From: a virus
UHGV virus genome: UHGV-0102815
Reading direction: 5' to 3' (one strand)
DNA length: 24,272 bases
Shown: piece by piece, positions 6,705 to 24,120 of the stretch
Layout: each line of letters begins with the position of its first letter
Position numbering within the stretch: the first letter of the stretch is position 1
Program-made: the position numbers and the translations under genes
Notes under the pieces: model-generated
The model's database searches: none
The model's input: only the letters and a program-made list of their open reading frames with translations
Told to the model about the DNA's origin: nothing

Positions 6705-7355
6705 TCAGCGGCTGTCATTGCGCAGTCTGCGCTCCAGCTGCTGTTTGTCTTTTTTCACGCCACAGCGGGGATCGAGCTGTAACGCATGGTTGAGATGATT
6801 AAGGGCGGACGCCGGATTGCTTTCACTCAGGACAGCGCCAATCGCTTTATGCAGACGCGCCCGTGACTGGTCCGGCATATCCAGACCGTCTGTCAGCTCC
6901 AGCGTCTGCAGCAGCGGATCGGCATCAAAGCCGGTGGCAGCAAGCATTGCGCTCTGCGCCGCGTCTGCCATTTCCTCTGCCAGCACGGTCTGCACGTTGC
7001 GGTTACCCAGCGGCATCACCCAGCCATGACGCAGGGCATGACGCCCGATCTCCAGCGCCCCGGCATAATCTCCGGCATCAATGCGCCACAGCATCACGTA
7101 CATCAGCACGTCATCCTGTTGAGCGCCTCCGGCAGCCAGGACACCCTCTGCCCAGGTGGCGTACTTCGGCAGCAGCTCCACCTTGATTTCCGCTTTTTTG
7201 ACCGTGGACTGAACGCCCTTGAGACGGCGGCGGTCTTCCGCCAGTTGCAGCAGCATCAGGTCATAGCCCGACGCGTGGCGAACACTGCCGCCCTCGCGGG
7301 CGGCCTGTTCAGCCTGAACGCGCAGGCGATGCTGCCGTGCGGGACTCAGGCTCAT
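6705..7355 (-). CDS. M: Terminase small (endonuclease) subunit gpM
   Basis: Translation ...ELLPKYATWAEGVLAAGGAQQDDVLMYVMLWRIDAGDYAGALEIGRHALRHG... resembles P2 gpM. Confidence 0.88.
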   Translation of the reverse strand: MSLSPARQHRLRVQAEQAAREGGSVRHASGYDLMLLQLAEDRRRLKGVQSTVKKAEIKVELLPKYATWAEGVLAAGGAQQDDVLMYVMLWRIDAGDYAGALEIGRHALRHGWVMPLGNRNVQTVLAEEMADAAQSAMLAATGFDADPLLQTLELTDGLDMPDQSRARLHKAIGAVLSESNPASALNHLNHALQLDPRCGVKKDKQQLERRLRNDSR

Positions 7356-9409: not shown

Positions 9410-11176
9410 ATGAACACCACACTGACACCCGCAGATCTCGATCCCCGTCGGCAGGCCATGCTGCTGTACTTTCAGGGATACCGCGTAGCCCGCATTGCTG
9501 AAATGCTGGGCGAGAAAGTTGCAACCGTTCACAGCTGGAAAAAACGCGACAAGTGGGGTGACTATGGGCCGCTGGATCAGATGCAGCTCACTACCGCCGC
9601 ACGCTACTGCCAGCTCATCATGAAGGAGCACAAAGAAGGGAAAGATTTCAAAGAGATTGACCTGCTGGCGCGCCAGTCTGAGCGCCACGCGCGGATCGGC
9701 AAGTTTAACAATGGCGGCAACGAAGCCGACTTAAACCCTAACGTCGCCAACCGCAATAAAGGCCCACGCCGTCAGCCGGAAAAGAATGTTTTCACCGATG
9801 AGCAGATTGAAAAGCTGGAAGAAATCTTCCATTCCTCCATGTTCAACTACCAGCGCCACTGGTGGGAAGCCGGAAAAACCAACCGCATCCGCAACCTGCT
9901 GAAGTCACGCCAGATCGGCGCGACCTTTTACTTTGCCCGTGAAGCCCTGATTGACGCCCTGCTTACCGGACGTAACCAGATTTTCCTTTCTGCCAGTAAG
10001 GCACAGGCCCACGTCTTCAAACAGTACATCATCGACTTTGCCAAAGAAGTGGAGGTGGAGCTGAAAGGCGATCCGATGGTGCTTCCTAACGGGGCCACGC
10101 TTTACTTCCTCGGCACCAATGCCCGCACAGCCCAGAGTTATCACGGCAACCTGTATCTGGATGAATATTTCTGGATCCCAAAATTCCAGGAGTTGCGCAA
10201 AGTGGCTTCCGGTATGGCTATTCACAAGAAATGGCGACAGACCTATTTTTCCACGCCATCCAGCCTGACACACAGTGCTTATCCGTTCTGGTCCGGTGCG
10301 CTGTTCAACCGAGGGCGCAACAAAGCCGATAAGGTGGACATCGACCTGTCCCACAGCAATCTGGCCCCCGGCCTGCTGTGCGCAGACGGGCAATACCGCC
10401 AGATAGTCACCGTGGAAGATGCGGTGCGCGGCGGCTGTAACCTGTTCGACCTCGACCAGTTGCGCATGGAGTACAGCCCGGACGAATACCAGAACCTGCT
10501 GATGTGTGAGTTCGTGGACGATCTCGCGTCCGTGTTCCCGCTCAGCGAGCTGCAGGCGTGCATGGTGGACAGTTGGGAAGTCTGGACCGACTTTCATGCA
10601 CTGGCCCTGCGCCCGTTTGGCTGGCGCGAGGTGTGGATCGGTTATGACCCGGCAAAAGGTACGCAGAACGGCGACAGCGCCGGATGCGTGGTGATGGCAC
10701 CGCCAGCCGTGCCAGGCGGTAAGTTTCGCATTCTTGAGCGTCACCAGTGGCGCGGGATGGACTTCCGCGCCCAGGCTGACGCCATCAAAAAACTGACCGA
10801 ACAGTACAACGTGACCTATATCGGCATCGACTCAACAGGTGTCGGTCACGGGGTTTACGAGAACGTGAAAGCGTTCTTTCCTGCCGTCCGGGAGTTTGTC
10901 TACAACCCCAACGTTAAAAACGCCCTGGTACTCAAAGCCTACGACATTATCAGTCACCGTCGTCTGGAGTTTGACGCCGGACACACCGACATAGCGCAGT
11001 CATTTATGGCAATCCGTCGCGCCACCACCGCCAGTGGCAACCGCCCGACCTATGAAGCCAGCCGCAGCGAAGAAGCCAGCCACGCCGATCTGGCCTGGGC
11101 AACGATGCACGCACTGTTTAACGAACCGCTGCAGGGCGAGTCCGCCAATACCAGCAATATTGTGGAGATTTTTTGA
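9410..11176 (+). CDS. P: Terminase large (ATPase) subunit gpP
   Basis: 588-aa ORF divergent from O and overlapping Q by ATGA; size and position match P2 gpP. Confidence 0.92.
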   Translation: MNTTLTPADLDPRRQAMLLYFQGYRVARIAEMLGEKVATVHSWKKRDKWGDYGPLDQMQLTTAARYCQLIMKEHKEGKDFKEIDLLARQSERHARIGKFNNGGNEADLNPNVANRNKGPRRQPEKNVFTDEQIEKLEEIFHSSMFNYQRHWWEAGKTNRIRNLLKSRQIGATFYFAREALIDALLTGRNQIFLSASKAQAHVFKQYIIDFAKEVEVELKGDPMVLPNGATLYFLGTNARTAQSYHGNLYLDEYFWIPKFQELRKVASGMAIHKKWRQTYFSTPSSLTHSAYPFWSGALFNRGRNKADKVDIDLSHSNLAPGLLCADGQYRQIVTVEDAVRGGCNLFDLDQLRMEYSPDEYQNLLMCEFVDDLASVFPLSELQACMVDSWEVWTDFHALALRPFGWREVWIGYDPAKGTQNGDSAGCVVMAPPAVPGGKFRILERHQWRGMDFRAQADAIKKLTEQYNVTYIGIDSTGVGHGVYENVKAFFPAVREFVYNPNVKNALVLKAYDIISHRRLEFDAGHTDIAQSFMAIRRATTASGNRPTYEASRSEEASHADLAWATMHALFNEPLQGESANTSNIVEIF

Positions 11177-12213
11177 TGGGAAAGAGTAAGAAAAACCGCG
11201 CTGCGGCGACGAATCAGCTCAAGCATAAAAGCCAGACTTCAGCCGAAGCATTCAGCTTCGGTGATCCCGTTCCTGTACTTGACCGCCGCGAACTGCTGGA
11301 CTATGTGGAATGCGTACAGACAGATCGCTGGTATGAGCCTCCTGTCAGCTTTGACGGACTGGCGCGCACCTTCCGCGCTGCCGTGCATCACAGTTCACCA
11401 ATTGCGGTGAAATGCAACATTCTGACCAGCACCTACATCCCTCACCCGCTGCTCAGCCAGCAGGCTTTTTCGCGTTTTGTACAGGACTATCTGGTTTTTG
11501 GTAACGCCTACCTGGAAAAACGCACGAACCGCTTCGGAGAGGTCATCGCTCTTGAGCCTGCGCTGGCAAAATACACCCGACGCGGGTTAGACCTGGATAC
11601 CTACTGGTTTGTGCAATATGGTATGACAACCCAGCCGTATCAGTTCACGAAAGGCAGCATCTTTCATCTGTTGGAACCGGACATCAACCAGGAGATCTAC
11701 GGCCTGCCCGGTTATCTTTCTGCCATTCCGTCCGCTCTGCTCAACGAGTCCGCCACGCTGTTCCGCCGGAAGTATTACATTAACGGTAGTCATGCAGGCT
11801 TCATCATGTACATGACCGATGCCGCGCAAAACCAGGAGGATGTGAACAACCTCCGCAACGCAATGAAAAGCGCCAAAGGTCCAGGCAACTTCCGCAACTT
11901 GTTTATGTACTCGCCTAACGGTAAAAAAGACGGGCTTCAGATCATCCCATTGTCAGAAGTCGCGGCGAAGGATGAATTTCTTAACATCAAGAACGTGAGT
12001 CGGGATGACATGATGGCAGCGCATCGCGTGCCGCCACAAATGATGGGGATTATGCCTAATAATGTCGGGGGGTTTGGGGATGTGGAAAAAGCCGCTCGCG
12101 TTTTTGTACGTAACGAACTGCAGCCATTGCAGAAACGTATGTGCGAACTGAACGAATGGATTGAGGAAAAAGTAATAAATTTTGAAGCGTATCAGCTCTC
12201 AATTGAGCAATAA
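11173..12213 (+). CDS. Q: Portal protein gpQ
   Basis: 346-aa ORF translationally coupled to P (ATGA overlap); size and position match P2 gpQ. Confidence 0.88.
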   Translation: MMGKSKKNRAAATNQLKHKSQTSAEAFSFGDPVPVLDRRELLDYVECVQTDRWYEPPVSFDGLARTFRAAVHHSSPIAVKCNILTSTYIPHPLLSQQAFSRFVQDYLVFGNAYLEKRTNRFGEVIALEPALAKYTRRGLDLDTYWFVQYGMTTQPYQFTKGSIFHLLEPDINQEIYGLPGYLSAIPSALLNESATLFRRKYYINGSHAGFIMYMTDAAQNQEDVNNLRNAMKSAKGPGNFRNLFMYSPNGKKDGLQIIPLSEVAAKDEFLNIKNVSRDDMMAAHRVPPQMMGIMPNNVGGFGDVEKAARVFVRNELQPLQKRMCELNEWIEEKVINFEAYQLSIEQ

Positions 12214-12245
12214 CTCTCAAATAGCTGAATAAGCCCGCAAAAGCT

Positions 12246-12271
12246 AACCTATAGATCAGGGTCTATAGGTT
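12246..12271 (-). terminator. Perfect 10-bp inverted repeat hairpin at the 3' end of the cargo operon, possibly bidirectional with Q
   Basis: aacctataga-tcaggg-tctataggtt; on the minus strand it is followed by agcTTTTgcg; the stop codon of the 215-aa cargo gene lies inside the stem. Confidence 0.45.
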
Positions 12272-12896
12272 TATGATGTAATGATACAGGATAATGCACA
12301 ACTTGATAATCCAGCTTACTTACAGTATGAAGGTGCTGACTATAAAAAACCAAGGGGTTTTTTGGGCAATCAATAATATTAACGGATTTACAAGCATGAA
12401 TCCTAGGTGCATTCTTTGATAAGAATGTTTTCCATGAATCCATCATGTCAGAACAGGAAGCGTTTTTCGTATAAATAATTAAACCACCCGAAGAGCTATT
12501 TATAGTCCCAGTACTATACCGCTCGGTAAGTTGTGCATAACCTTTAAAAAGATATAAATATGAAGAATGTTTTTTAGCTTCCCCATGCCAGATATAATCT
12601 GCAAGGGTAATAGATATATCACAATGTCCTCTCTGGTTCTTCTCGTGACTGGCTTCGAGCCCCAGATATCTATTTTCAATATACGAAAGCAAATATAGAG
12701 TTAACTGATCTTCAGAGAGATCAAAGTTAATTTTATTGCCATTTTGCTCTAATTTACTTACAGCGTAATCCAGCTCCTTTCGAACAAGACTGTTGAAATT
12801 AGAATAGGACTCCAACGCAAATTGAATCCTTTGAATGGCAAAGTGAACCTTCTGCAAATGAAAGTTTTTCTCCAAATCATCCAGACTTGTAAGCAT
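12249..12896 (-). CDS. Cargo operon gene 3: hypothetical protein, 215 aa, no confident family assignment (weak PD-(D/E)xK-like motif)
   Basis: Long ORF in AT-rich DNA; start ATG overlaps the upstream gene's stop (TAATG); segment CDISITLADYIWHGEAKK loosely resembles a nuclease D...ExK motif. Confidence 0.7.
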   Translation of the reverse strand: MLTSLDDLEKNFHLQKVHFAIQRIQFALESYSNFNSLVRKELDYAVSKLEQNGNKINFDLSEDQLTLYLLSYIENRYLGLEASHEKNQRGHCDISITLADYIWHGEAKKHSSYLYLFKGYAQLTERYSTGTINSSSGGLIIYTKNASCSDMMDSWKTFLSKNAPRIHACKSVNIIDCPKNPLVFYSQHLHTVSKLDYQVVHYPVSLHHKPIDPDL

Positions 12897-13324
12897 TAGT
12901 ACGCCCCTTCCTTTGTGAAATTAATAACTGTAAAGAAAGGAAATACATATTTTTTGTAGTCTGGCACAATCTCACCAGTATATGGATGCTCTAAACCTTG
13001 ATTATCTTCAGCATCAATCACGTCCGCAATGCTTATATTAACTGGATCGAAACCATCGTCTATAAATTGATAGTTTAATTTCAAAAAATTAACTTTTGGA
13101 TTACACAAAACTTGGATAGCCAAGTAAATATCATGCTCATCCACTTTAGCGCCCCCCTTATTCGAAATCGCTATATCAAATAAAAGGTTATAACTAATGA
13201 ATATATTAGGAGAGCGAGCTGCTAACTTTGCAAGTTTTTCATAAAACATGCACGCCAAAACTCCCACTTCTGGGCGTTCTGAGCATATGTCTTGTATAGT
13301 CTTTGCCAAGTTAGCATCCTTCAT
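12896..13324 (-). CDS. Cargo operon gene 2: hypothetical protein, 142 aa, function unknown
   Basis: ORF with CTGGAG Shine-Dalgarno 6 nt upstream of ATG 13324; AT-rich; no recognisable motif. Confidence 0.7.
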   Translation of the reverse strand: MKDANLAKTIQDICSERPEVGVLACMFYEKLAKLAARSPNIFISYNLLFDIAISNKGGAKVDEHDIYLAIQVLCNPKVNFLKLNYQFIDDGFDPVNISIADVIDAEDNQGLEHPYTGEIVPDYKKYVFPFFTVINFTKEGAY

Positions 13325-13336
13325 TTTTGTCTCCAG

Positions 13337-14443
13337 CTATAGTATCAGCTTCGTAAGCGTTTCGAAATCATCACGAGAGATACATTTACTAAGTATAGCA
13401 AAATTCACTGGTGAACCAGAGCTTCCACCAAGGTACCGTCTTAGCGTTCCTGGTATAGTAAGTTCTACATTGTCCGCTAACTGTAGTAAAGGATTTGTTC
13501 GCTCAACCCTGATGCCTATCCTATAAAGTCCGATATTGCCTACGGCTTTAATACCTTCTTGATTGAAGATATCTTGTCTCAAATCTTTAGTGGAGTCAGT
13601 TTTCCTTTCCTTATGTGTTGTCCCTTCAGGGGTAAGGAATGAAAGCTCAAAAACTTTATAATTAAGAGTTGAGTATGGTTTTTGATCTTGCTTAAAGATT
13701 GGTTCAATCAAGGGAAAGAAATCTCTTTCTTTTGATGCAAACTCAGCACCTATAATATTATAAAGTTCTCTTACTACAGTACTCTTTGCAAACAAGACGC
13801 TCTCACCTATTGTATTAATACCTGCATCTATCAAAATAGAGATAGTAGAGTTGGTCTTATTAAAAATGCACACATCAAAACATTGATGCTTTTCTTTTTT
13901 AGTAGCAATGATCTCTTCGTAGCCACTGTACTGCGGTAAACTTTTAGGCGAAATCCGCTCTCTAATTTTTTGCTCTCTAACGGAACTAAATAGAGCTAAA
14001 GCCTGATTATTGCTCTCAGAATAATGAACTAAGTTTATTTTATTCTTCCCCGACGCATTAATTTCCTGCTCAGAAAGGATTACATCTGAGGCGACAGAAG
14101 GCTGTTCAGATAAATCCCACTTTAATTTCATAGCCTTTGTTAGCGAGGAAATTATTTGGTTGTCTACTGATAAACAAAAAAAAGCTTTATCACCGTAGAC
14201 CAATTGACCAAATATTAAATTATTTACAGACCTTATGATATCATTAAATTTATTTAAATTCTTTTCCTTTAATTCTGTTAATTCTTCCAGTATTTTTCCA
14301 TGAGTAGCATCTCTACCTTTACCACGAGCTAATCCAAGAGCTGAAATAACAGGTTTTGCCACGTTCCATGGAAATCTCGTGATTAGTGTCAAAATGGATT
14401 TCATTTCTGCTTCACTAAGTACTACTGGGACATTTCCTGTCAT
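13337..14443 (-). CDS. Cargo operon gene 1: hypothetical protein, about 368 aa, with a possible trypsin-like serine-protease signature near the C-terminus
   Basis: Start placed at ATG 14443 (MTGNVPVV...); the track's longer ORF begins at GTG 14470 with no RBS; motif LGGSSGSPV resembles the GxSGxPV catalytic-serine signature of S1 peptidases. Confidence 0.7.
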   Translation of the reverse strand: MTGNVPVVLSEAEMKSILTLITRFPWNVAKPVISALGLARGKGRDATHGKILEELTELKEKNLNKFNDIIRSVNNLIFGQLVYGDKAFFCLSVDNQIISSLTKAMKLKWDLSEQPSVASDVILSEQEINASGKNKINLVHYSESNNQALALFSSVREQKIRERISPKSLPQYSGYEEIIATKKEKHQCFDVCIFNKTNSTISILIDAGINTIGESVLFAKSTVVRELYNIIGAEFASKERDFFPLIEPIFKQDQKPYSTLNYKVFELSFLTPEGTTHKERKTDSTKDLRQDIFNQEGIKAVGNIGLYRIGIRVERTNPLLQLADNVELTIPGTLRRYLGGSSGSPVNFAILSKCISRDDFETLTKLIL

Positions 14444-14586
14444 CTTAATTACCTGTTGAAATTGCAACACAAGGTCGTCTTCGGGAGATCAATGGGAGTA
14501 TTCCAATAACTTACCCAGGTATAGGAGTGCTTTCAAGTCTAAGACTATCTTCTGTCTAACAGCGCATGTTTTCATCTAAGCGCGCG

Positions 14587-14605
14587 CTCGTATCCCCGCC
14601 ACGCC
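14587..14605 (-). other. Candidate cos site (cohesive-end sequence)
   Basis: Minus strand reads GGCGTGGCGGGGATACGAG, close to the 186/P2 cohesive-end sequences as I recall them; GC-rich island between the cargo operon and the SOS operon. Confidence 0.45.
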
Positions 14606-14650
14606 TGCCCGCTTTATGTAGTGGTTTTCATGCACCTGCATGATCTACGC

Positions 14651-14675
14651 AAAAGCCCGCCAGTTCTGGCGGGCC
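14651..14675 (-). terminator. Rho-independent terminator downstream of the DinI-like gene
   Basis: GC-rich hairpin gcccgccag...ctggcgggc; the minus-strand transcript is followed by TTTTGCG. Confidence 0.55.
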
Positions 14676-14809
14676 TTAGCAAAAACGATCCTCAAACGAT
14701 CATGCGATCTCATGCGGCATAGACATGCACTACAGAGCTAACGCCTCGCAAGGGCTCGTTGTTCAACCTTGCTGACGCCAGAAGCAAGTTCAGACGCCAG
14801 CAACGTTTC

Positions 14810-15043
14810 TTAATGCAGCCAGCTGTCGTCTTCCCACACCTTCTGCATAATTTTCATCACTTGTTTTCTTTCTTCGTCCAGTTGCAGTCCGGTTAGTTCC
14901 ACACCGTTAGAGCTACCTTTGCGAATGCGAATTACCGTTTTGGGATACAGGGGGCGCAGATTGCGGTAAAGCTCGGATTCAAGGGCGTCCAGGGTAGACT
15001 GGCTAATCTTCTGCTCTTTATCGATCATTATTTCAATGCGCAT
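14810..15043 (-). CDS. DinI-family protein (Tum-like antirepressor domain), SOS-induced
   Basis: Translation from MRIEIMIDKEQ...ALESELYRNLRPLYP...QKVWEDDSWLH resembles DinI and the C-terminal part of 186 Tum; strong GAGGTGA RBS 5 nt upstream of ATG 15043. Confidence 0.8.
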   Translation of the reverse strand: MRIEIMIDKEQKISQSTLDALESELYRNLRPLYPKTVIRIRKGSSNGVELTGLQLDEERKQVMKIMQKVWEDDSWLH

Positions 15044-15053
15044 AAAAGTCACC

Positions 15054-15242
15054 TCAGCTGATGACATCCATTGAGCGGTTGTATTCGTGGGTTCTGATTT
15101 TTGCCATGAGTTCATCAGTCAATTCAGAAACCCACTGCAGAGCCAGCCCCTTCTCTTCATCACTACACTCACTAGCCGCTACAAGCTTAAGAAAAAAATC
15201 AATGCGCTGGAGCTTCAAAGACTCCAAAAAATAGTCCTGCAT
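15054..15242 (-). CDS. Small protein (62 aa), first gene of the LexA-controlled operon; possible N-terminal Tum-like partner
   Basis: ATG 15242 preceded by GGAGG with a 4-nt spacer; stop lies 10 nt before the DinI-like start; the two products together approximate 186 Tum in length. Confidence 0.55.
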   Translation of the reverse strand: MQDYFLESLKLQRIDFFLKLVAASECSDEEKGLALQWVSELTDELMAKIRTHEYNRSMDVIS

Positions 15243-15285
15243 CTTTCCTCCTATGACACCACACGCAATACTGTATGTATAACCA

Positions 15286-15301
15286 CTGTTTATATTTACA
15301 G
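15286..15301. promoter_or_regulatory. Consensus LexA box (CTGT-N8-ACAG) overlapping the -10 of the SOS operon promoter, with a second degenerate box adjacent at 15271-15286
   Basis: ctgtttatatttacag is a perfect CTGT-N8-ACAG; the minus-strand -10 TATACT (15305..15300) overlaps it; ctgtatgtataaccac lies next to it. Confidence 0.7.
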
Positions 15302-15396: not shown

Positions 15397-17811
15397 TTAA
15401 TACAGGTTCCGCCACTGATCATCTTCCTGCAAACGCTGGTTCCGATAGAAGATACGCAGGCCTGCTCCTGACGGAATACTGCCTCCGCGAAGGAGTAAAT
15501 CGACCTCTTTCTCGCTGCCATCAAATCCTCTGGACTTCAGCTCATACACGAGCTGCAGTCGCTGATGGTCTGTAATTCGCTGTTTGTAGTCTTTACGCCG
15601 TTTCGGTTTCACCAGGCGTAACCTTGCTGCCAGTTCCCGACGCTCTTTTTTGCTCATACTGTGCAGGTAATCGTGCAACTCCTTGTCATCCATGCTGGTA
15701 ATGTCCGTTCTGGGGTCCCCATCTGCTGATTTATCTTTCTCCTGTTGGTTAAAATTTTCAGCAAGGGGACAGTTATTGCCACGAGTCCAAGGGGCGCAAG
15801 CGCCCTGGTCGGCTACCGCCTCCTGAACGTCAACGGCCTTACGAACCATTTTCCACTTCACTGCATGAGTGCAGATCTTGCCCTCTGAAATGGGTGACCA
15901 GATGCCATAAATACGAATACCGTGATCGCCATAGGCGGTCGGCTCTTCGTTAATTTCATAAGCGGTTCTGATAAGGTGATATTTGCGGGGAACCAGTACG
16001 CCGCCCTGCTTCATGATGTAGGTGGCAAAACAACCAGCATCAGCAGCAGCCAGGATGGCATCAAGACGCGGGTCATCCAGTACCGGCGCACCTGCTTTTT
16101 TGTCACCCGGTTGCCTTGCCGCCTGACCAGCCAGCAAGCGAAGTTCACGGTAAGCCTGACGCCCCGGAATGCCAAAGAAGCGGAATTGCTGAACACGATG
16201 CAGAGACGCCCAGGCATTAACGTATTCAGCGTTATCACGCAGGGATTTACCCGTTTCCTTGCTGATCTCGCCAGCCAGACCACGCCCGTCAATGTTCTTA
16301 CTGATGTATTTCGCGATGTAGCTTGTTGGCGTACCTTTGCGCGGGTTTATCAGCTCAGACTTAAAGCGTGGTCCCGTGTTATTACCCAGCTCCTCGCGGT
16401 CTTCACGAATGGCAAACTTACGCAACAAAGCAGTAATGGTGCGGCGATCTTTTTTGCGCATAAAACACAACAGGTGCCAGTGAACTGTACCGTCATGATG
16501 CGGCTCAGCCACCCGCACGCCATACCAGCGCAATCCGGCTTTGTGCATCGCCTTACGAAATGCAGCAAACATGCCGACCAGATAATCACTGCTTTGTCTT
16601 ACCGTCGTATTTGTCCAGGTCGGGTTGGGCCTGCCGTTATTTAGCGTGGAATGGAAACGTGACGGACAGGTGATGGTGTAGAAAACGGCGCAGTCACCGC
16701 GCATTTCCGCGATAAGCTCCAGACCTTTAACACAGGCCATCATCTCATTGCGGCGATGCGCAGGGTTGCTGCTGCTGGCGTTTACCACATCCTCCATGTC
16801 CAGCGTGTCGCCGTCTTCGTTCACCAGTTCATGAGAACGGAAAAACTCCAGCGACTTACGGCGCTGCTCACGTTTATGCATCACGGCTTCATAGCTGACA
16901 TAGGGAGATGCTTTTTTGCTGACCAGGCAAACAGCACGCAACTGCTCTTCCCGCCATTCGCAACGCATCTTCCATAATTTCCGGTACCACCAGTCGGCGC
17001 ACAACATACGCGCCAGCGAACCCGGAATGAGTTCATAGGGCACGGGTTTACGGCGGTTTCTTTTCCGGCGGAGTTGCTCAAACGCAGGCGGTATGACATC
17101 CAGTCGCAGGGTTTCCGCAGCCACCTTTTCCCATGTCTTGCGGATTTCTTCTGGCTTAACATCATCGGTGGCGTACAAATCACCACAAGCGGCATCAAGA
17201 CACATGCTCATATGCGCAGCGACAAGAGTAGACAGGCGTTTCACCTGATCCTGACTCATTTCAGGCAAGTTCAGCAGGCCGTCCAGCCCTTCATGGCTTG
17301 CCATAAAGCGAAAAGAAGTGGATAGCTGACTCTCGCGTACATGCTCCAGTCGTTCCAGACATGGCTTAATCGTCTCACGCAAATAGCGGGAATAAGCCTT
17401 TGGCCTGCCCAGGCTGCTGAAGTATTCAATACGTTGCATCAGCGGCTTGCTGATATGGGAAGGCTGGGCGTTAACGTCCGCCAGTATGACCATGTCCGGA
17501 TTAAAACGCTGCTGCTCATGCGCCAGCTTTGCCCGGCTAATGAGCTTATCCTGCTCCATTTCGCGTTGGACAGGATCACGGGATTCATTAAAGAAATAAC
17601 GCTCCCAGACCTGATCACTCAGTACCTCGAGGCGCAGTTGTTCCTGCTCGTTATCGGCAGCGTACAGAGTGATCAGGTTTGAAAGCGCAGAAACCGGCGC
17701 AACTTCCGCCGGGTCCAGATAAGGGTTAATAGCCTTTTTCGGGCTGTTCCATGAGAATGCTGCGGCGGCCTCGTTAAAGCCGCTGCAGTTGTTCATATCA
17801 GCATGGCTCAT
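15397..17811 (-). CDS. A: Replication initiation protein gpA (rolling-circle HUH endonuclease)
   Basis: 804-aa ORF containing [12 protein letters not shown] (HUH-type motif); position and size match P2/186 gene A. Confidence 0.92.
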
Positions 17812-18665
17812 GCACGCACTCCGTACACGGCAGAACTATCCACGCCACGCGAAGGATCAAATCCCACCCAGCAGCGCACCCCAGAAACAGCGATGATTTC
17901 TGCTGCAAATTTACTCTCACCAGCTGCTACGCCGATGCTGCGTTTTGCCTTGATGTAGTGGTGAGTAAAATTGCGATACAGCGAACGGATCAGGGATGTG
18001 TCACTGTTAGAAACAATGACCGGATGTCCTTCTGATGACCGATGTTCAAGAACGGATGCCAGGTGATACTGGTCATCTTCAGTGAAGCCGTCAGTGTGAT
18101 AACCGGAAAACGTGCCGTCATACGGCGGATCGCAATACACCACATCCCCCGCCTTCAACATCGCCAGCGTTTCATCAAAGCTGGCGCAGATAAACGTTGC
18201 CCGCTGAGCTTTTTCTGCAAATGCGCGAATTTCTTTTTCAGGGAAATACGGATTTTTATAATTACCGTAGGGAATGTTGAAATGCCCGCTCTTGTTATAG
18301 CGACATAAACCACGGTAACCGTGACGATTGAGATACAGGAAATATACCGCTTTCATGAAATCAGTAATTTCAGTGGAGTAATTAAACTCCTGCCTTATGT
18401 TGTAATAAGCCACCTCCCTGTTTGCTTCCTCAAACAAAATTCTGGCGCTAGATATAAACGCCTCACAATCAGCAGCAACCTTTTTATAGAGGTTGATTAA
18501 ATCAGGATTAATATCCGCAACCAGATAGCTGGGATAATCCGTCTCCATCATCACTGCACAGGAACCCGCGAAAGGTTCAACCAGTCGCGGGCCAGCAGGA
18601 AGATGTTTTTTCAGTTCGGACATAATGGCGGTTTTATTTCCCGCCCATTTCAGGATGGTGCTCAT
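17808..18665 (-). CDS. dam: DNA adenine methyltransferase (Dam family)
   Basis: N-terminal KWAGNK (Dam motif I-like), FAGSCAV (AdoMet binding) and catalytic DPPY; stop overlaps the start of A. Confidence 0.9.
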
Positions 18666-20730: not shown

Positions 20731-20819
20731 AAGGCAACATTCCTTCTAGATATGGCTTGTGGCGAGCCGTTGTTTGTCGTGATTAGTAGTGAAGGCTCCA
20801 AAAGAAGACTTCTGGTTCA

Positions 20820-20848
20820 ACTTTAAGATCGCTTTTGGAATCTGTCAA
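20820..20848 (-). promoter_or_regulatory. Candidate lytic promoter pR (-35 TTGACA, 17-bp spacer, -10 TAAAGT) directed toward apl
   Basis: Minus strand reads TTGACA-gattccaaaagcgatct-TAAAGT; flanked by imperfect repeats of TTTTGGA(A/T)T that could be operator sites. Confidence 0.4.
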
Positions 20849-20875
20849 CGAATTTTGGATTTCTTTGGAGGATTT

Positions 20876-21445
20876 GTGGATTTCAATAGCGGCGGTAAGA
20901 AAGCCATAGAACGTTTGGTTGAAGCATACGGGTTCGGTACCCGTCAGGCTCTCTGTGATCATTTAGGTGTTTCTAAGAGCACCATGGCAACGCGTTATAT
21001 GCGTGATATTTTTCCGGCAGATTGGGTAATCCAGTGCGCCCTTGAAACGGGTACCTCGCTTAATTGGCTAACAACAGGGCATGGTTCAAAGCAAGCATCA
21101 GCAAATACAAATACTATAGAAGTAGTAAAATATTTATTGTCTGATGGAGCATTGCAGGAAGACGGTTTTTATATTTTTGATAAGGGATTTCTACCCTCTA
21201 CGTTTAAAAAACCTTTTGTCATCACAGATAACAATTCTGAATTTATTTGTGATAAAGAATTTGATGATATACGTGATGGTAAATGGGTAATAAGTATTGA
21301 TGGCGAAATAACAATCCGCGACATCACTCGTTTACCCGGTGGAAGAATTTTCGTTGAAGGTGGAAACAGAGCCTTCGAGTGCAAGATAGAAGATGTTGAA
21401 ATAATTGGAAAAATTATAAGCTTAACAGTTAAGTATGTTAGATAA
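20876..21445 (+). CDS. cI: CI-like immunity repressor (186 CI type)
   Basis: Start placed at GTG 20876 after GGAGGA; translation ...EAYGFGTRQALCDHLGVSKSTMATRYMR...CALETGTSLNWLTTGHG... and C-terminal ...WVISIDGEITIRDITRLPGGRIFVEGG... resemble 186 CI. Confidence 0.8.
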   Translation: MDFNSGGKKAIERLVEAYGFGTRQALCDHLGVSKSTMATRYMRDIFPADWVIQCALETGTSLNWLTTGHGSKQASANTNTIEVVKYLLSDGALQEDGFYIFDKGFLPSTFKKPFVITDNNSEFICDKEFDDIRDGKWVISIDGEITIRDITRLPGGRIFVEGGNRAFECKIEDVEIIGKIISLTVKYVR

Positions 21446-21656: not shown

Positions 21657-22988
21657 ATGAGCACAGATATAACTTTCGATATACGTGATGAATATAAAAG
21701 AAAAGCCATTGCAGAAAAAATAATAAGTTTGCTAGAGTCTAATATTCCTGTTTCACCTATGGTCATAGATGGGGACTGGGGGACTGGAAAAACAGAGTTT
21801 TCAAAAAAGTTAGCATCCTTAATTGAAATAAACTCGACCAATCATAAAGTAATTTATATAGATGCTTTTACTGAAGATCACAACGATGCTCCCATACTTA
21901 CAATAATGGCCGCAATTGCAGCTCTATATAATAGCGATGAAAAAAAGGAATTAATATCTAAGGCATTGCCAGCCCTCAGATTCGGACTTAAGACTGTACT
22001 CAAAGCTGGTGCTGGTTGGGTATTAAAACAAAATGCGGATGAAATTAATAAGGAATTTGAAGAGGTTATCAAAGACGCTGCAAATTCAGCTATCGATGGA
22101 ACCATCGAGGCTCTGTTAGAAGATCATATCGAGGCACAAAAGAACGTTCTTGCTCTAAAAGAAGTACTAACCAAATTAGCTGGAGAAAGTAAACTAACAA
22201 TAATTATAGATGAGTTAGACAGATGTAAGCCTAGTTTTGCCATTTCTATTATTGAAAATATAAAACATGTTTTTGATATAAAAAACATTAACTTTTTATT
22301 AATTGCAAACACAACTCAACTAAAAGCATCCATAAATCATATCTATGGCTCTTCTGTAGACTCCAACCGTTATCTTGACAAATTTATAAAATTTACATAC
22401 AGCCTTCCTGTTACCTTTAAGGAAGATAATTATAATGATACTTTAACTTCCAAAAATCATTGGATGATGCTATGTGAGCAATCTGAAAGGCTGACCGCTG
22501 CAGTAGAAGCCAGCGAAGATATTTTCTTACAGTTCATTGAAAGTAGAAAATTATCATTACGTGAGGTTGAAACACTTGCTAGATATGTTGAAATATACCA
22601 ACTACTATCAGGCGACAAAATTAGCAACAAATATATTTATGGATATTGTTATTACAGGACTCTAGCGATAATAATCTACACTTTTAACCGAGAGTTAGCT
22701 CTCAACTTTCTTGAAGATAAAGTTGATGCTCAATCAATCATGAAATTGTTTGGTTTATCTAAATTTTCATATCAAACAAGTGAATATAATGTAGATAATT
22801 ATGAATATGCTATATTTGGAATAGTTTACAAATACTTATCTGAAAACTCATCTCTTTTACCTGCTGAGGAAAATATAAAAAGACAATGGGCAGAAATGAG
22901 TGAATACCATTTTTTAAAAGGTGGTGGCGGTATTGGTGAACCAACAAATATTGTGAAAGATGCTTTAAAAGTTTTTTTACTTCAGTGA
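21657..22988 (+). CDS. KAP-family P-loop NTPase
   Basis: Walker A GDWGTGKT and Walker B IIIDELDRC separated by a long insert, typical of KAP NTPases; AT-rich; inserted between cI and int. Confidence 0.8.
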   Translation: MSTDITFDIRDEYKRKAIAEKIISLLESNIPVSPMVIDGDWGTGKTEFSKKLASLIEINSTNHKVIYIDAFTEDHNDAPILTIMAAIAALYNSDEKKELISKALPALRFGLKTVLKAGAGWVLKQNADEINKEFEEVIKDAANSAIDGTIEALLEDHIEAQKNVLALKEVLTKLAGESKLTIIIDELDRCKPSFAISIIENIKHVFDIKNINFLLIANTTQLKASINHIYGSSVDSNRYLDKFIKFTYSLPVTFKEDNYNDTLTSKNHWMMLCEQSERLTAAVEASEDIFLQFIESRKLSLREVETLARYVEIYQLLSGDKISNKYIYGYCYYRTLAIIIYTFNRELALNFLEDKVDAQSIMKLFGLSKFSYQTSEYNVDNYEYAIFGIVYKYLSENSSLLPAEENIKRQWAEMSEYHFLKGGGGIGEPTNIVKDALKVFLLQ

Positions 22989-23067
22989 TATGTATGGCTA
23001 TACAAATTCATACATTGACACTGGTTATACATACAGTAAAAATGCTCTCCACTGGAGGGCATTTTTT

Positions 23068-24120
23068 ATGGCAGTACGAAAACTCACCACAGGAAAATGG
23101 CTTTGCGAATGTTACCCCGCCGGACGTAGTGGACGTCGTGTGCGTAAACAATTCGCCACCAAAGGCGAAGCTCTGGCTTTTGAGCGTCACACGATGGAAG
23201 AAACCGAAGCAAAGCCCTGGCTGGGTGAATCAGTGGATCGTCGAACACTGAAAGACGTGGTTGAACTATGGTTCAAACTACATGGTAAATCTCTGACTGC
23301 TGGGCAGCATGTCTATGACAAATTGCTGCTGATGGCTGACGCTCTGGGCAATCCCCTTGCAACCGATCTCACATCTAAAATGTTTGCCCATTATCGAGAT
23401 AAACGACTGACAGGTGAGATCTACTTCAGCGAGAAATGGAAGAAAGGAGCCAGCCCGGTCACCATTAACCTGGAGCAAAGCTATCTAAGTAGTGTTTTTA
23501 GCGAACTATCCCGTCTGGGCGAATGGTCGTATCCGAACCCACTGGAGAACATGCGAAAATTCACCATCGCAGAAAAAGAGATGGCATGGCTTACCCATGA
23601 GCAGATTGTTGAATTACTGGCTGATTGCAAACGTCAGGACCCAATTCTGGCACTGGTAGTTAAGATATGCTTAAGCACAGGCGCACGCTGGCGAGAAGCC
23701 GTAAATCTTACTCGTTCACAGGTGACCAAATACCGAATTACCTTTGTCAGAACGAAGGGGAAGAAAAACAGAAGCATCCCTATCAGTAAAGAGCTTTACG
23801 AAGAGATCATGGCGCTTGATGGGTTCAATTTCTTCACAGACTGCTATTTTCAATTTTTATCCGTGATGGAAAAAACGTCTATCGTGCTCCCTCGCGGTCA
23901 ACTGACACACGTTCTGCGCCATACGTTTGCGGCGCACTTCATGATGTCGGGTGGAAACATCCTGGCCTTACAAAAAATTCTCGGACACCACGATATAAAA
24001 ATGACTATGCGTTACGCACATCTGGCACCGGATCATCTGGAAACGGCGCTCCGTTTCAATCCTCTGGCAACATTGCCAAGTGGCGACAAAGTGGCGGCAG
24101 CGGTTGGCATTACCCCGTAA
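23068..24120 (+). CDS. int: Tyrosine integrase (P2/186 Int family)
   Basis: Translation from MAVRKLTTGKW...GRSGRRVRKQFATKGEALAFE resembles the P2 Int N-terminus; C-terminus has ARW, HVLRHTFAAHFM and MRYAHL (R-H-R-Y catalytic residues); start at ATG 23068 after GGAGGG. Confidence 0.93.
   Translation: MAVRKLTTGKWLCECYPAGRSGRRVRKQFATKGEALAFERHTMEETEAKPWLGESVDRRTLKDVVELWFKLHGKSLTAGQHVYDKLLLMADALGNPLATDLTSKMFAHYRDKRLTGEIYFSEKWKKGASPVTINLEQSYLSSVFSELSRLGEWSYPNPLENMRKFTIAEKEMAWLTHEQIVELLADCKRQDPILALVVKICLSTGARWREAVNLTRSQVTKYRITFVRTKGKKNRSIPISKELYEEIMALDGFNFFTDCYFQFLSVMEKTSIVLPRGQLTHVLRHTFAAHFMMSGGNILALQKILGHHDIKMTMRYAHLAPDHLETALRFNPLATLPSGDKVAAAVGITP

What the first reader, a model, noticed from the sequence alone, without database searches (positions are those of the whole stretch)
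14560..14620. Candidate cos site placed so that the cargo operon lies between cos and the portal gene
The minus strand carries GGCGTGGCGGGGATACGAG, close to the conserved cohesive-end sequence of 186/P2 as I recall it. If this is cos, the three-gene cargo sits inside the packaged genome at the extreme left end, between cos and Q, and is mobilised with the phage. It also shows that the Q-to-cos interval tolerates about 2.3 kb of insertion.
Basis: partly seen in the sequence, partly recalled or inferred. Interest (0 to 1): 0.4.

Follow-up and report, generated by a model that had tools for sequence, protein, structure and literature searches.

The report
P2-type cos site beside cargo slot
The flagged sequence is the DNA-packaging cut site (cos) of a P2/186-like prophage, and the three foreign genes between it and the portal gene sit in a cargo slot that has been described in this phage family since the 1990s, so the finding is correct but ordinary.

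Summary
GGCGTGGCGGGGATACGAG lies on the minus strand at window 14605→14587. It matches the mapped 186 cohesive end at 15/19 bases and the P2 end at 14/19. It is identical to the cos annotated in Salmonella phage SEN8 and lies within the one annotated in phage Cartapus.

The 19-mer sits inside a 151-bp block (14579-14729) conserved across related prophages of 56 bacterial species. The exact 19-mer occurs in 33 of 61 loci. Conservation falls to background 7-8 bp past the 19-mer on the portal (Q) side. There a 2.4-kb segment of 36% GC begins, against a backbone of 53-55%.

It is not new. Cargo between cos and the packaging genes is cited to Dodd & Egan 1996 and Nakayama 1999. Rousset 2022 described the gpA-cos-gpQ interval as a defence hotspot. 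In my survey 44 of 52 related loci carry more than 500 bp between Q and cos, up to 3.5 kb.

Virion termini were not mapped here, nor did I find a published mapping for this cos variant.

The cargo itself has no known function. It comprises a protein with an RdgC-like fold, a small acidic protein and a predicted PD-(D/E)xK nuclease. The same three-gene module occurs in a Bradyrhizobium island, so it is a candidate defence system.

The parts
14587..14605 (-). 19-nt cohesive-end sequence GGCGTGGCGGGGATACGAG. Staggered nicks are predicted between 14606|14605 on the minus strand and 14587|14586 on the plus strand.
   Evidence: 15/19 to 186 and 14/19 to P2. Identical to the SEN8 annotated cos (PMC5427200) and lies within the Cartapus annotated cos. 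33 of 61 related loci carry the exact 19-mer. Nick positions are inferred from the 186 annotation.
14579..14729 (.). Whole conserved cos block: about 124 bp on the replication-gene (right-arm) side, the 19-mer, and 7-8 bp (CGCGCGC) on the portal (left-arm) side.
   Evidence: Per-base conservation over 56 loci is 75-100% inside the block and about 25-35% outside, with sharp edges at 14729 and 14579/80. Homology in 1277 E. coli genomes ends 10-16 bp past the 19-mer. In E. coli relatives an extra 678-bp gene lies on the replication-gene side of the block, at about its right edge.
14579..14636 (-). Core shared with P2, P4 and 186 (GGTGCATGAAAACC...AAAGCGGGCA + 19-mer + CGCGCGC). It corresponds to the 55-bp core of Ziermann & Calendar 1990.
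   Evidence: Four-way alignment. Identity 43-45 of 58. The 55-bp core is cited in PMC5694545.
14649..14680 (-). GC-rich hairpin followed by a T run, inside the cos block. Probably an intrinsic terminator that stops the SOS-operon transcript before cos.
   Evidence: RNA fold -27.6 kcal/mol, z = -4.2. Inverted repeat I1. The hairpin plus T run is kept in relatives with different stem sequences; 3 of 5 consensus pairs show compensatory changes. Function is inferred.
14697..14729 (-). Distal GCATG/TGCAT repeats, with a further palindrome CATGCAGGTGCATG at 14629-14642. Candidate terminase (small subunit) recognition elements.
   Evidence: Motifs at -124/-123, -110, -100, -37/-36 and -29/-28 from the 19-mer. 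Five GCATG/CATGC in 151 bp against 1.85 per kb in the window. Conserved in P2, P4 and 186. Binding is inferred, not tested.
12177..14578 (.). Variable cargo segment, 36% GC. It replaces the short Q-cos spacer and the tQ terminator seen in P2/186-type relatives, and also the last 37-76 nt of Q.
   Evidence: Homology breakpoints against loci with the minimal spacer fall at 12137-12176 and 14579-14581. GC is 0.362 against 0.545 and 0.528 in the backbone.
13337..14443 (-). Cargo gene 1, 368 aa, RdgC-like fold, unknown function.
   Evidence: No Pfam, PADLOC or NCBIfam hit. phrog_12777, unknown function. AlphaFold2 mean pLDDT 85.7. Best PDB matches are RdgC 2owl/2owy, E 2e-6, TM 0.33-0.39.
12896..13324 (-). 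Cargo gene 2, 142 aa, acidic (pI 4.7), unknown function.
   Evidence: Homologue in the Bradyrhizobium module, 29% identity, E 2e-11.
12249..12896 (-). Cargo gene 3, 215 aa, predicted PD-(D/E)xK nuclease.
   Evidence: D93, E106 and K108 are invariant in 35 homologues. pLDDT 91.6. Most of the leading fold matches are restriction-type or CRISPR-ancillary nucleases and all are weak (OkrAI E 9e-3, Cdn1, Nt.BspD6I, Bax1, Can2). One distant homologue is named 'Restriction endonuclease' by UniRef.
11173..12213 (+). Portal gene Q, convergent with the cargo.
   Evidence: PF04860. 61% identical to P2 Q, 64% to the 186 Q homologue (W), 94% to Cartapus.
9410..11176 (+). Terminase large subunit gpP.
   Evidence: PF06056, PF03237 and PF17289. 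63% identical to P2 P, 99.7% to Cartapus.
6705..7355 (-). Terminase small subunit gpM.
   Evidence: PF05944, E 1.5e-39.
14810..15301 (-). SOS operon reading towards cos: LexA box (15286-15301), a 62-aa ORF (15054-15242) and a DinI/Tum-like gene (14810-15115 as the longest ORF).
   Evidence: PF06183 DinI. phrog_189 and phrog_698. CTGTTTATATTTACAG. Same layout as 186 p95-tum.
15397..17811 (-). Replication endonuclease gpA.
   Evidence: PF05840, E 2.9e-127.

Best explanation
Window 14579-14729 is the cos site of a P2/186-like temperate phage close to the Felsduovirus/Elveevirus genera. After excision and replication, the P2-type terminase (gpM small subunit, gpP large subunit) recognises the conserved block. 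Most of that block lies on the replication-gene side: GCATG repeats, the palindrome CATGCAGGTGCATG and AAAGCGGGCA. The terminase then makes staggered nicks that leave the 19-nt 5' overhang GGCGTGGCGGGGATACGAG. Only about 7 conserved base pairs (CGCGCGC) follow the 19-mer on the portal side, so DNA from that point up to the 3' end of Q is free to vary. In this prophage that slot holds a 2.4-kb, low-GC, three-gene operon transcribed away from cos. The operon therefore occupies the extreme left end of the linear virion DNA and travels with the phage. Shown here: sequence homology, position relative to the genes, the extent of conservation, the breakpoints and the foreign composition. Inferred: terminase binding to the repeats, the exact nick positions, and that this copy is active.
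For: The 19-mer and its flanks align with the annotated ends of the P2 and 186 records and with the P4 record ends. The identical 19-mer is annotated as cos in SEN8 and lies within the cos annotated in Cartapus, whose gpP is 99.7% identical to the window's (PMC5427200). The SEN8 and EtG records, which were laid out to start at their annotated cos, end at the base before the 19-mer. A cos motif lies downstream of Q in 63 of 80 species-level loci, and 61 could be extracted; 33 of these carry the exact 19-mer. The conserved block has sharp edges. The window carries the majority base at the highly conserved positions, so there is no sign of decay. A P2-type terminase, portal, scaffold and capsid are encoded alongside. 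The cargo is compositionally foreign, with breakpoints at 14579-14581 and 12137-12176. SEN8, an isolated phage, carries about 2.2 kb between cos and Q. Cartapus carries about 0.8 kb.
Against: No virion end was mapped for this element. For the ATACGAG variant I found only annotation by homology. The window does not contain the whole prophage, so its completeness and packaged size are unknown. The scan found no consensus promoter for the cargo operon between cos and its start codon.
Confidence: 0.9

Rival explanations
1. The homology is real, but this copy is a relic in a defective prophage and is never cut, so the cargo is not mobilised by packaging.
For: Only 24 kb of the element is visible, and the distal tail genes and att sites are outside the window. 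Many P2-like prophages are cryptic (general knowledge).
Against: Every visible gene is an intact ORF with a strong family match: gpP, Q, O, N, M, lysozyme, baseplate, A, CI, CII and integrase. The cos block carries the majority base at the highly conserved positions. Nearly identical packaging genes and cos occur in Cartapus, which has its own phage genome record.
Confidence: 0.1
2. The site is cos, but the cohesive end differs from the 19 bases predicted. The last 6 bases (TACGAG against AAGCAT in 186) diverge, so one nick could be displaced.
For: Positions 14-19 differ from 186 and P2 at 4-5 bases. No experimental mapping of this variant was found.
Against: The distance from the invariant GGCGTGGCGGGG to the invariant (C/T)GCGCGC is exactly the same in P2, P4, 186 and all 56 loci. 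Same-length overhangs are therefore the simplest reading.
Confidence: 0.05
3. The match to the P2/186 cohesive end is a chance resemblance in a GC-rich intergenic stretch.
For: None beyond the 4-5 mismatches to the reference 19-mers.
Against: Flanks and position relative to the genes are conserved in dozens of species. blastn E-values reach about 1e-40. The 13-mer is unique in the window.
Confidence: 0.01

Closest known systems
cos of coliphages P2 and 186 and satellite P4 (19-nt 5' cohesive ends; 55-bp core of Ziermann & Calendar 1990)
   Same: Same position between the replication region and portal gene Q. Same GGCG(T/A)GGCGGGG start. Same spacing to the flanking GCGCGC. Same upstream TGCAT(T/G)AAAACC and AAAGCGGGC elements and distal TGCAT repeats. 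A P2-type terminase is present.
   Different: Positions 14-19 of the overhang differ (TACGAG against AAGCAT in 186 and AAGCAC in P2). Terminase gpP is only 63% identical to P2 and 186. The Q-cos spacer is 2373 bp instead of 167 or 176 bp.
Annotated cos of Salmonella phage SEN8 (NC_047753; PMC5427200) and Escherichia phage Cartapus (NC_070909)
   Same: Identical 19-mer and near-identical core. Both also carry cargo between cos and Q: a hypothetical protein plus an HNH endonuclease in SEN8, and a DUF4145 protein in Cartapus.
   Different: Different cargo genes. Those cos sites are themselves predictions by homology.
Cos-proximal cargo hotspot of P2-like phages
   Same: Foreign genes inserted right next to cos between gpA and gpQ, variable among otherwise collinear phages. 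Rousset et al. 2022 (PMC9122126) describe the gpA-gpQ locus. Retrons Ec67 and Ec86 lie between cos and the packaging gene according to Dodd & Egan 1996, as cited in PMC7826664 and PMC5694545. PMC5694545 also cites Nakayama 1999 for the cosL-Q position as a hotspot.
   Different: This three-gene cargo has no match in PADLOC 2.0, Pfam or NCBIfam and was not found in the Rousset supplementary tables. P2 itself carries its cargo (old, tin) on the other side of cos.

Membership tests
P2-family cos site | 19-nt cohesive-end sequence beginning GGCG(A/T)GGCGGGG | tested here: met
   Minus strand 14605-14587. 15/19 to 186 and 14/19 to P2.
P2-family cos site | Conserved core of about 55 bp around the cohesive end, shared by P2, P4 and 186 | tested here: met
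   43-45 of 58 identical, with the same spacing of all conserved elements. The core is cited in PMC5694545.
P2-family cos site | Location between the replication/accessory region (gpA side) and portal gene Q, with Q transcribed towards cos | tested here: met
   gpA 15397-17811 (-), cos 14579-14729, Q 11173-12213 (+). The same order holds in 52 related loci.
P2-family cos site | Cognate P2-type terminase (gpM small subunit, gpP large subunit) in the same element | tested here: met
   PF05944 at 6705-7355. PF06056, PF03237 and PF17289 at 9410-11176.
P2-family cos site | Cleavage in vivo to give 19-nt 5' overhangs on virion DNA | not testable with these tools
   Needs virion DNA. No published mapping of the ATACGAG variant was found.
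P2-like cos-proximal cargo/defence hotspot (Rousset 2022) | Variable gene content at the gpA-cos-gpQ locus among collinear phages | tested here: met
   1277 of 5426 E. coli genomes match the query, the listed ones over the cos block only, and 6 carry this cargo. Q-cos distance is 148-3499 bp and A-cos distance 460-4390 bp in 52 loci.
P2-like cos-proximal cargo/defence hotspot (Rousset 2022) | Cargo has anti-phage activity | tested here: inconclusive
   No hit to known defence models. There is a predicted PD-(D/E)xK nuclease. The three-gene module is conserved next to an integrase and a SIR2_2 gene in Bradyrhizobium. No phenotype data.

The most novel reading that the evidence does not exclude
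The three-gene cargo (RdgC-like DNA-binding-fold protein, small acidic protein, PD-(D/E)xK nuclease) is a previously undescribed anti-phage defence system. It is conserved as a unit from P2-like prophages of Enterobacterales, and of a MAG labelled Plesiomonas, to an integrase-associated island in Bradyrhizobium. It is carried at the very left end of the phage genome.
Probability: 0.4. Interest if true: 0.5.

Novelty: already known. Interest (0 to 1): 0.15.

Why it matters
The result fixes the linear map of this prophage and defines the minimal conserved cos block (151 bp, with only about 7 bp on the portal side). That explains why the DNA next to the left cohesive end is such a free cargo slot in P2-like phages and P4 satellites. 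This is useful for annotating such elements and for delimiting cargo. It does not change what is known about packaging in this family. The only part with discovery potential is the uncharacterised three-gene cargo.

Tried and rejected
- **Known-family searches for the cargo.** Pfam, NCBIfam and PADLOC gave nothing for the three proteins, even at E up to 1 over whole alignments. Profile searches of PDB sequences gave nothing.
- **Literature on the cargo.** The RefSeq accessions of the cargo proteins are absent from the Rousset 2022 supplements and from the paper library. A search for 'RdgC-like' defence systems was unproductive.
- **Ziermann & Calendar 1990.** The paper is not held, so the 55-bp core is cited second-hand.
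- **Other features.** Rfam and tRNA scans of the window found nothing.
- **Promoter for the cargo.** The promoter scan gave no site on the cargo strand between cos and the first cargo gene.
- **Second cos-like site.** Rejected. The only other weak match (17839-17851, 2 mismatches) lies inside coding sequence at the methylase/gpA junction.
- **The hairpin at 14649-14680 as a conserved structured RNA.** Covariation is modest. A plain terminator is the simpler reading.

Full report
**What the window is**

The window is a P2/186-like prophage, reversed relative to the standard P2 map.
- The terminase large subunit gpP (9410-11176) and the portal Q (11173-12213) are on the plus strand.
- On the minus strand are the scaffold O, capsid N, small terminase M, lysis and baseplate genes, and the replication endonuclease gpA (15397-17811).
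- The CI repressor and the integrase, near the right end of the window, are on the plus strand.
- gpP is 63% identical to P2 and 186 and 99.7% identical to Escherichia phage Cartapus. Q is 61-64% identical to P2 and 186 and 94% to Cartapus.

**The observation**

The minus strand reads GGCGTGGCGGGGATACGAG at 14605→14587.
- The reference records annotate the cohesive ends as GGCGAGGCGGGGAAAGCAC (P2) and GGCGTGGCGGGGAAAGCAT (186). The window matches them at 14/19 and 15/19.
- After rebuilding the circular junctions of P2, 186 and P4, the flanks align as well. Upstream lie TGCAT(G/T)AAAACC...AAAGCGGGC(A/G) and downstream (C/T)GCGCGC, all at the same spacing.
- The window shares 43-45 of 58 core positions with the three references. 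This corresponds to the 55-bp P2-family core of Ziermann & Calendar 1990, as cited in PMC5694545.
- The identical 19-mer is the annotated cos of Salmonella phage SEN8 (PMC5427200). It also lies within the annotated cos of Cartapus.
- The SEN8 and Erwinia EtG records, which were laid out to begin at their annotated cos, end exactly at the base before the 19-mer.
- The 13-mer GGCGWGGCGGGGA is unique in the window.

**Extent of the element**

A scan of one genome per species with the portal protein returned 80 loci. A cos motif lies downstream of Q in 63 of them, and the surrounding sequence could be extracted for 61.
- Of those 61, 33 carry the exact 19-mer.
- Per-base conservation over 56 enterobacterial-type loci defines a block from 14729 to 14579. 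It comprises about 124 bp on the replication-gene side, the 19-mer, and only 7-8 bp (CGCGCGC) on the portal side.
- Identity drops sharply to about 25-35% at both edges.
- The block holds distal GCATG repeats (14697-14729) and a hairpin plus T run (14649-14680; -27.6 kcal/mol, z = -4.2). It also holds the palindrome CATGCAGGTGCATG (14629-14642).
- The hairpin keeps its form in relatives with different stem sequences, though covariation is modest. I read it as the terminator of the SOS operon that runs towards cos.
- That the GCATG repeats are terminase recognition elements is an inference.

**The cargo slot**

- In complete E. coli genomes, 1277 of 5426 have a match to the query. For the listed genomes that lack the cargo, the match is the cos block only, and homology stops 10-16 bp past the 19-mer. 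Only 6 genomes carry this cargo.
- Compared with relatives that have the short P2-like spacer, the breakpoints are 14579-14581 and 12137-12176. The variable segment therefore also replaces the tQ terminator and the last 37-76 nt of Q.
- The segment is 36% GC against 53-55% in the flanking phage genes.
- The Q-stop to 19-mer distance is 2373 bp here, 167 bp in P2 and 176 bp in 186.
- Across 52 loci where both distances could be measured, the Q-side spacer ranges from 148 to 3499 bp with a median of 1718 bp. Forty-four loci exceed 500 bp and 18 reach 2 kb or more. The replication-gene side ranges from 460 to 4390 bp.
- A filled cos-Q slot is thus the normal state in this clade.
- In close E. coli relatives and in the Klebsiella phage record KP12, an extra 678-bp gene lies on the replication-gene side, close to the right edge of the block. 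Cos is therefore flanked by two cargo slots.

**Prior knowledge**

- Rousset et al. 2022 examined the cos-proximal locus between gpA and gpQ. They reported 1,650 gene arrangements and validated defence systems there (PMC9122126).
- PMC7826664 restates that retron Ec67 is inserted between cos and the DNA-packaging gene.
- SEN8 (about 2.2 kb) and Cartapus (about 0.8 kb) are phage genome records with cargo in the same place.
- One correction: the cargo is packaged because it lies within the prophage. Its side of cos only decides that it maps to the extreme left end, 143 bp from the duplex end.

**What remains inferred**

- No virion termini were mapped. I found no experimental mapping of the ATACGAG variant.
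- The whole prophage is not in the window, so I could not confirm that it is intact.
- No consensus promoter for the cargo was detected.

**The cargo itself**

- The three proteins (368, 142 and 215 aa) match no Pfam, NCBIfam or PADLOC model. They fall in PHROGs of unknown function.
- Protein 1 models well (pLDDT 85.7). Its best structural matches are the DNA-binding toroid RdgC, with E 2e-6 but TM only 0.33-0.39.
- Protein 3 (pLDDT 91.6) has invariant D93, E106 and K108. Most of its leading structural matches are PD-(D/E)xK nucleases, and all are weak.
- The same three-gene order occupies the same cos-Q slot in a Plesiomonas MAG and in Rosenbergiella, at 43-64% protein identity.
- It recurs outside any P2-like phage in Bradyrhizobium yuanmingense, next to an integrase and a SIR2_2 gene. 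There protein 1 is 23% identical (E 5e-18), protein 2 is 29% (E 2e-11) and protein 3 is 38%.
- In Sneathiella a homologue of protein 3 directly follows a Type ISP restriction enzyme.
- This makes the module a reasonable candidate defence system, but no function is shown.

**Verdict**

This is a known kind of element in a known arrangement, so interest is low.

Noticed in passing
window 12249-14443 (minus strand); L094 3521-5780; L060 and L044 downstream of Q: The three cargo genes (RdgC-like fold, small acidic protein, predicted PD-(D/E)xK nuclease) form a conserved module. It also occurs in a Bradyrhizobium island beside an integrase and a SIR2_2 gene. It matches no known defence model and is a candidate new defence system.
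   Followed up: partly
window 21657-22988 (+): A KAP-family P-loop NTPase (PF07693, E 5e-53) sits between the CI repressor (20789-21445) and the integrase (22990-24120). This is a second cargo position in the same prophage.
   Followed up: no
window 15286-15301: A perfect LexA-box pattern CTGTTTATATTTACAG lies upstream of a 62-aa ORF and a DinI/Tum-like gene. The layout matches the SOS-inducible p95-tum operon of 186, which suggests the prophage is SOS-inducible.
   Followed up: partly
loci L010-L089 (52 with both distances measurable): The lengths of the two cos-flanking variable intervals (Q side and gpA side) are negatively correlated (r = -0.57). Their sum is 960-5137 bp, which may reflect a packaging-size budget. 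This was not corrected for phylogeny.
   Followed up: partly
window 12137-12213: Homology with relatives ends 37-76 nt before the Q stop codon. The portal's C-terminal codons therefore belong to the exchanged segment rather than to the conserved gene.
   Followed up: partly
L090 19273-19950; L005 4223-4900: Close E. coli and Klebsiella relatives carry an extra 678-bp hypothetical gene between the DinI-like gene and the cos block, close to the block's right edge (window 14729). The window lacks this gene.
   Followed up: partly
L005 (OM835953, 'Klebsiella phage KP12 clone KP12_3'): This record, classified as Vequintavirinae, is a P2-like element with the same cos and the same three-gene cargo. 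The taxonomy label looks wrong.
   Followed up: no
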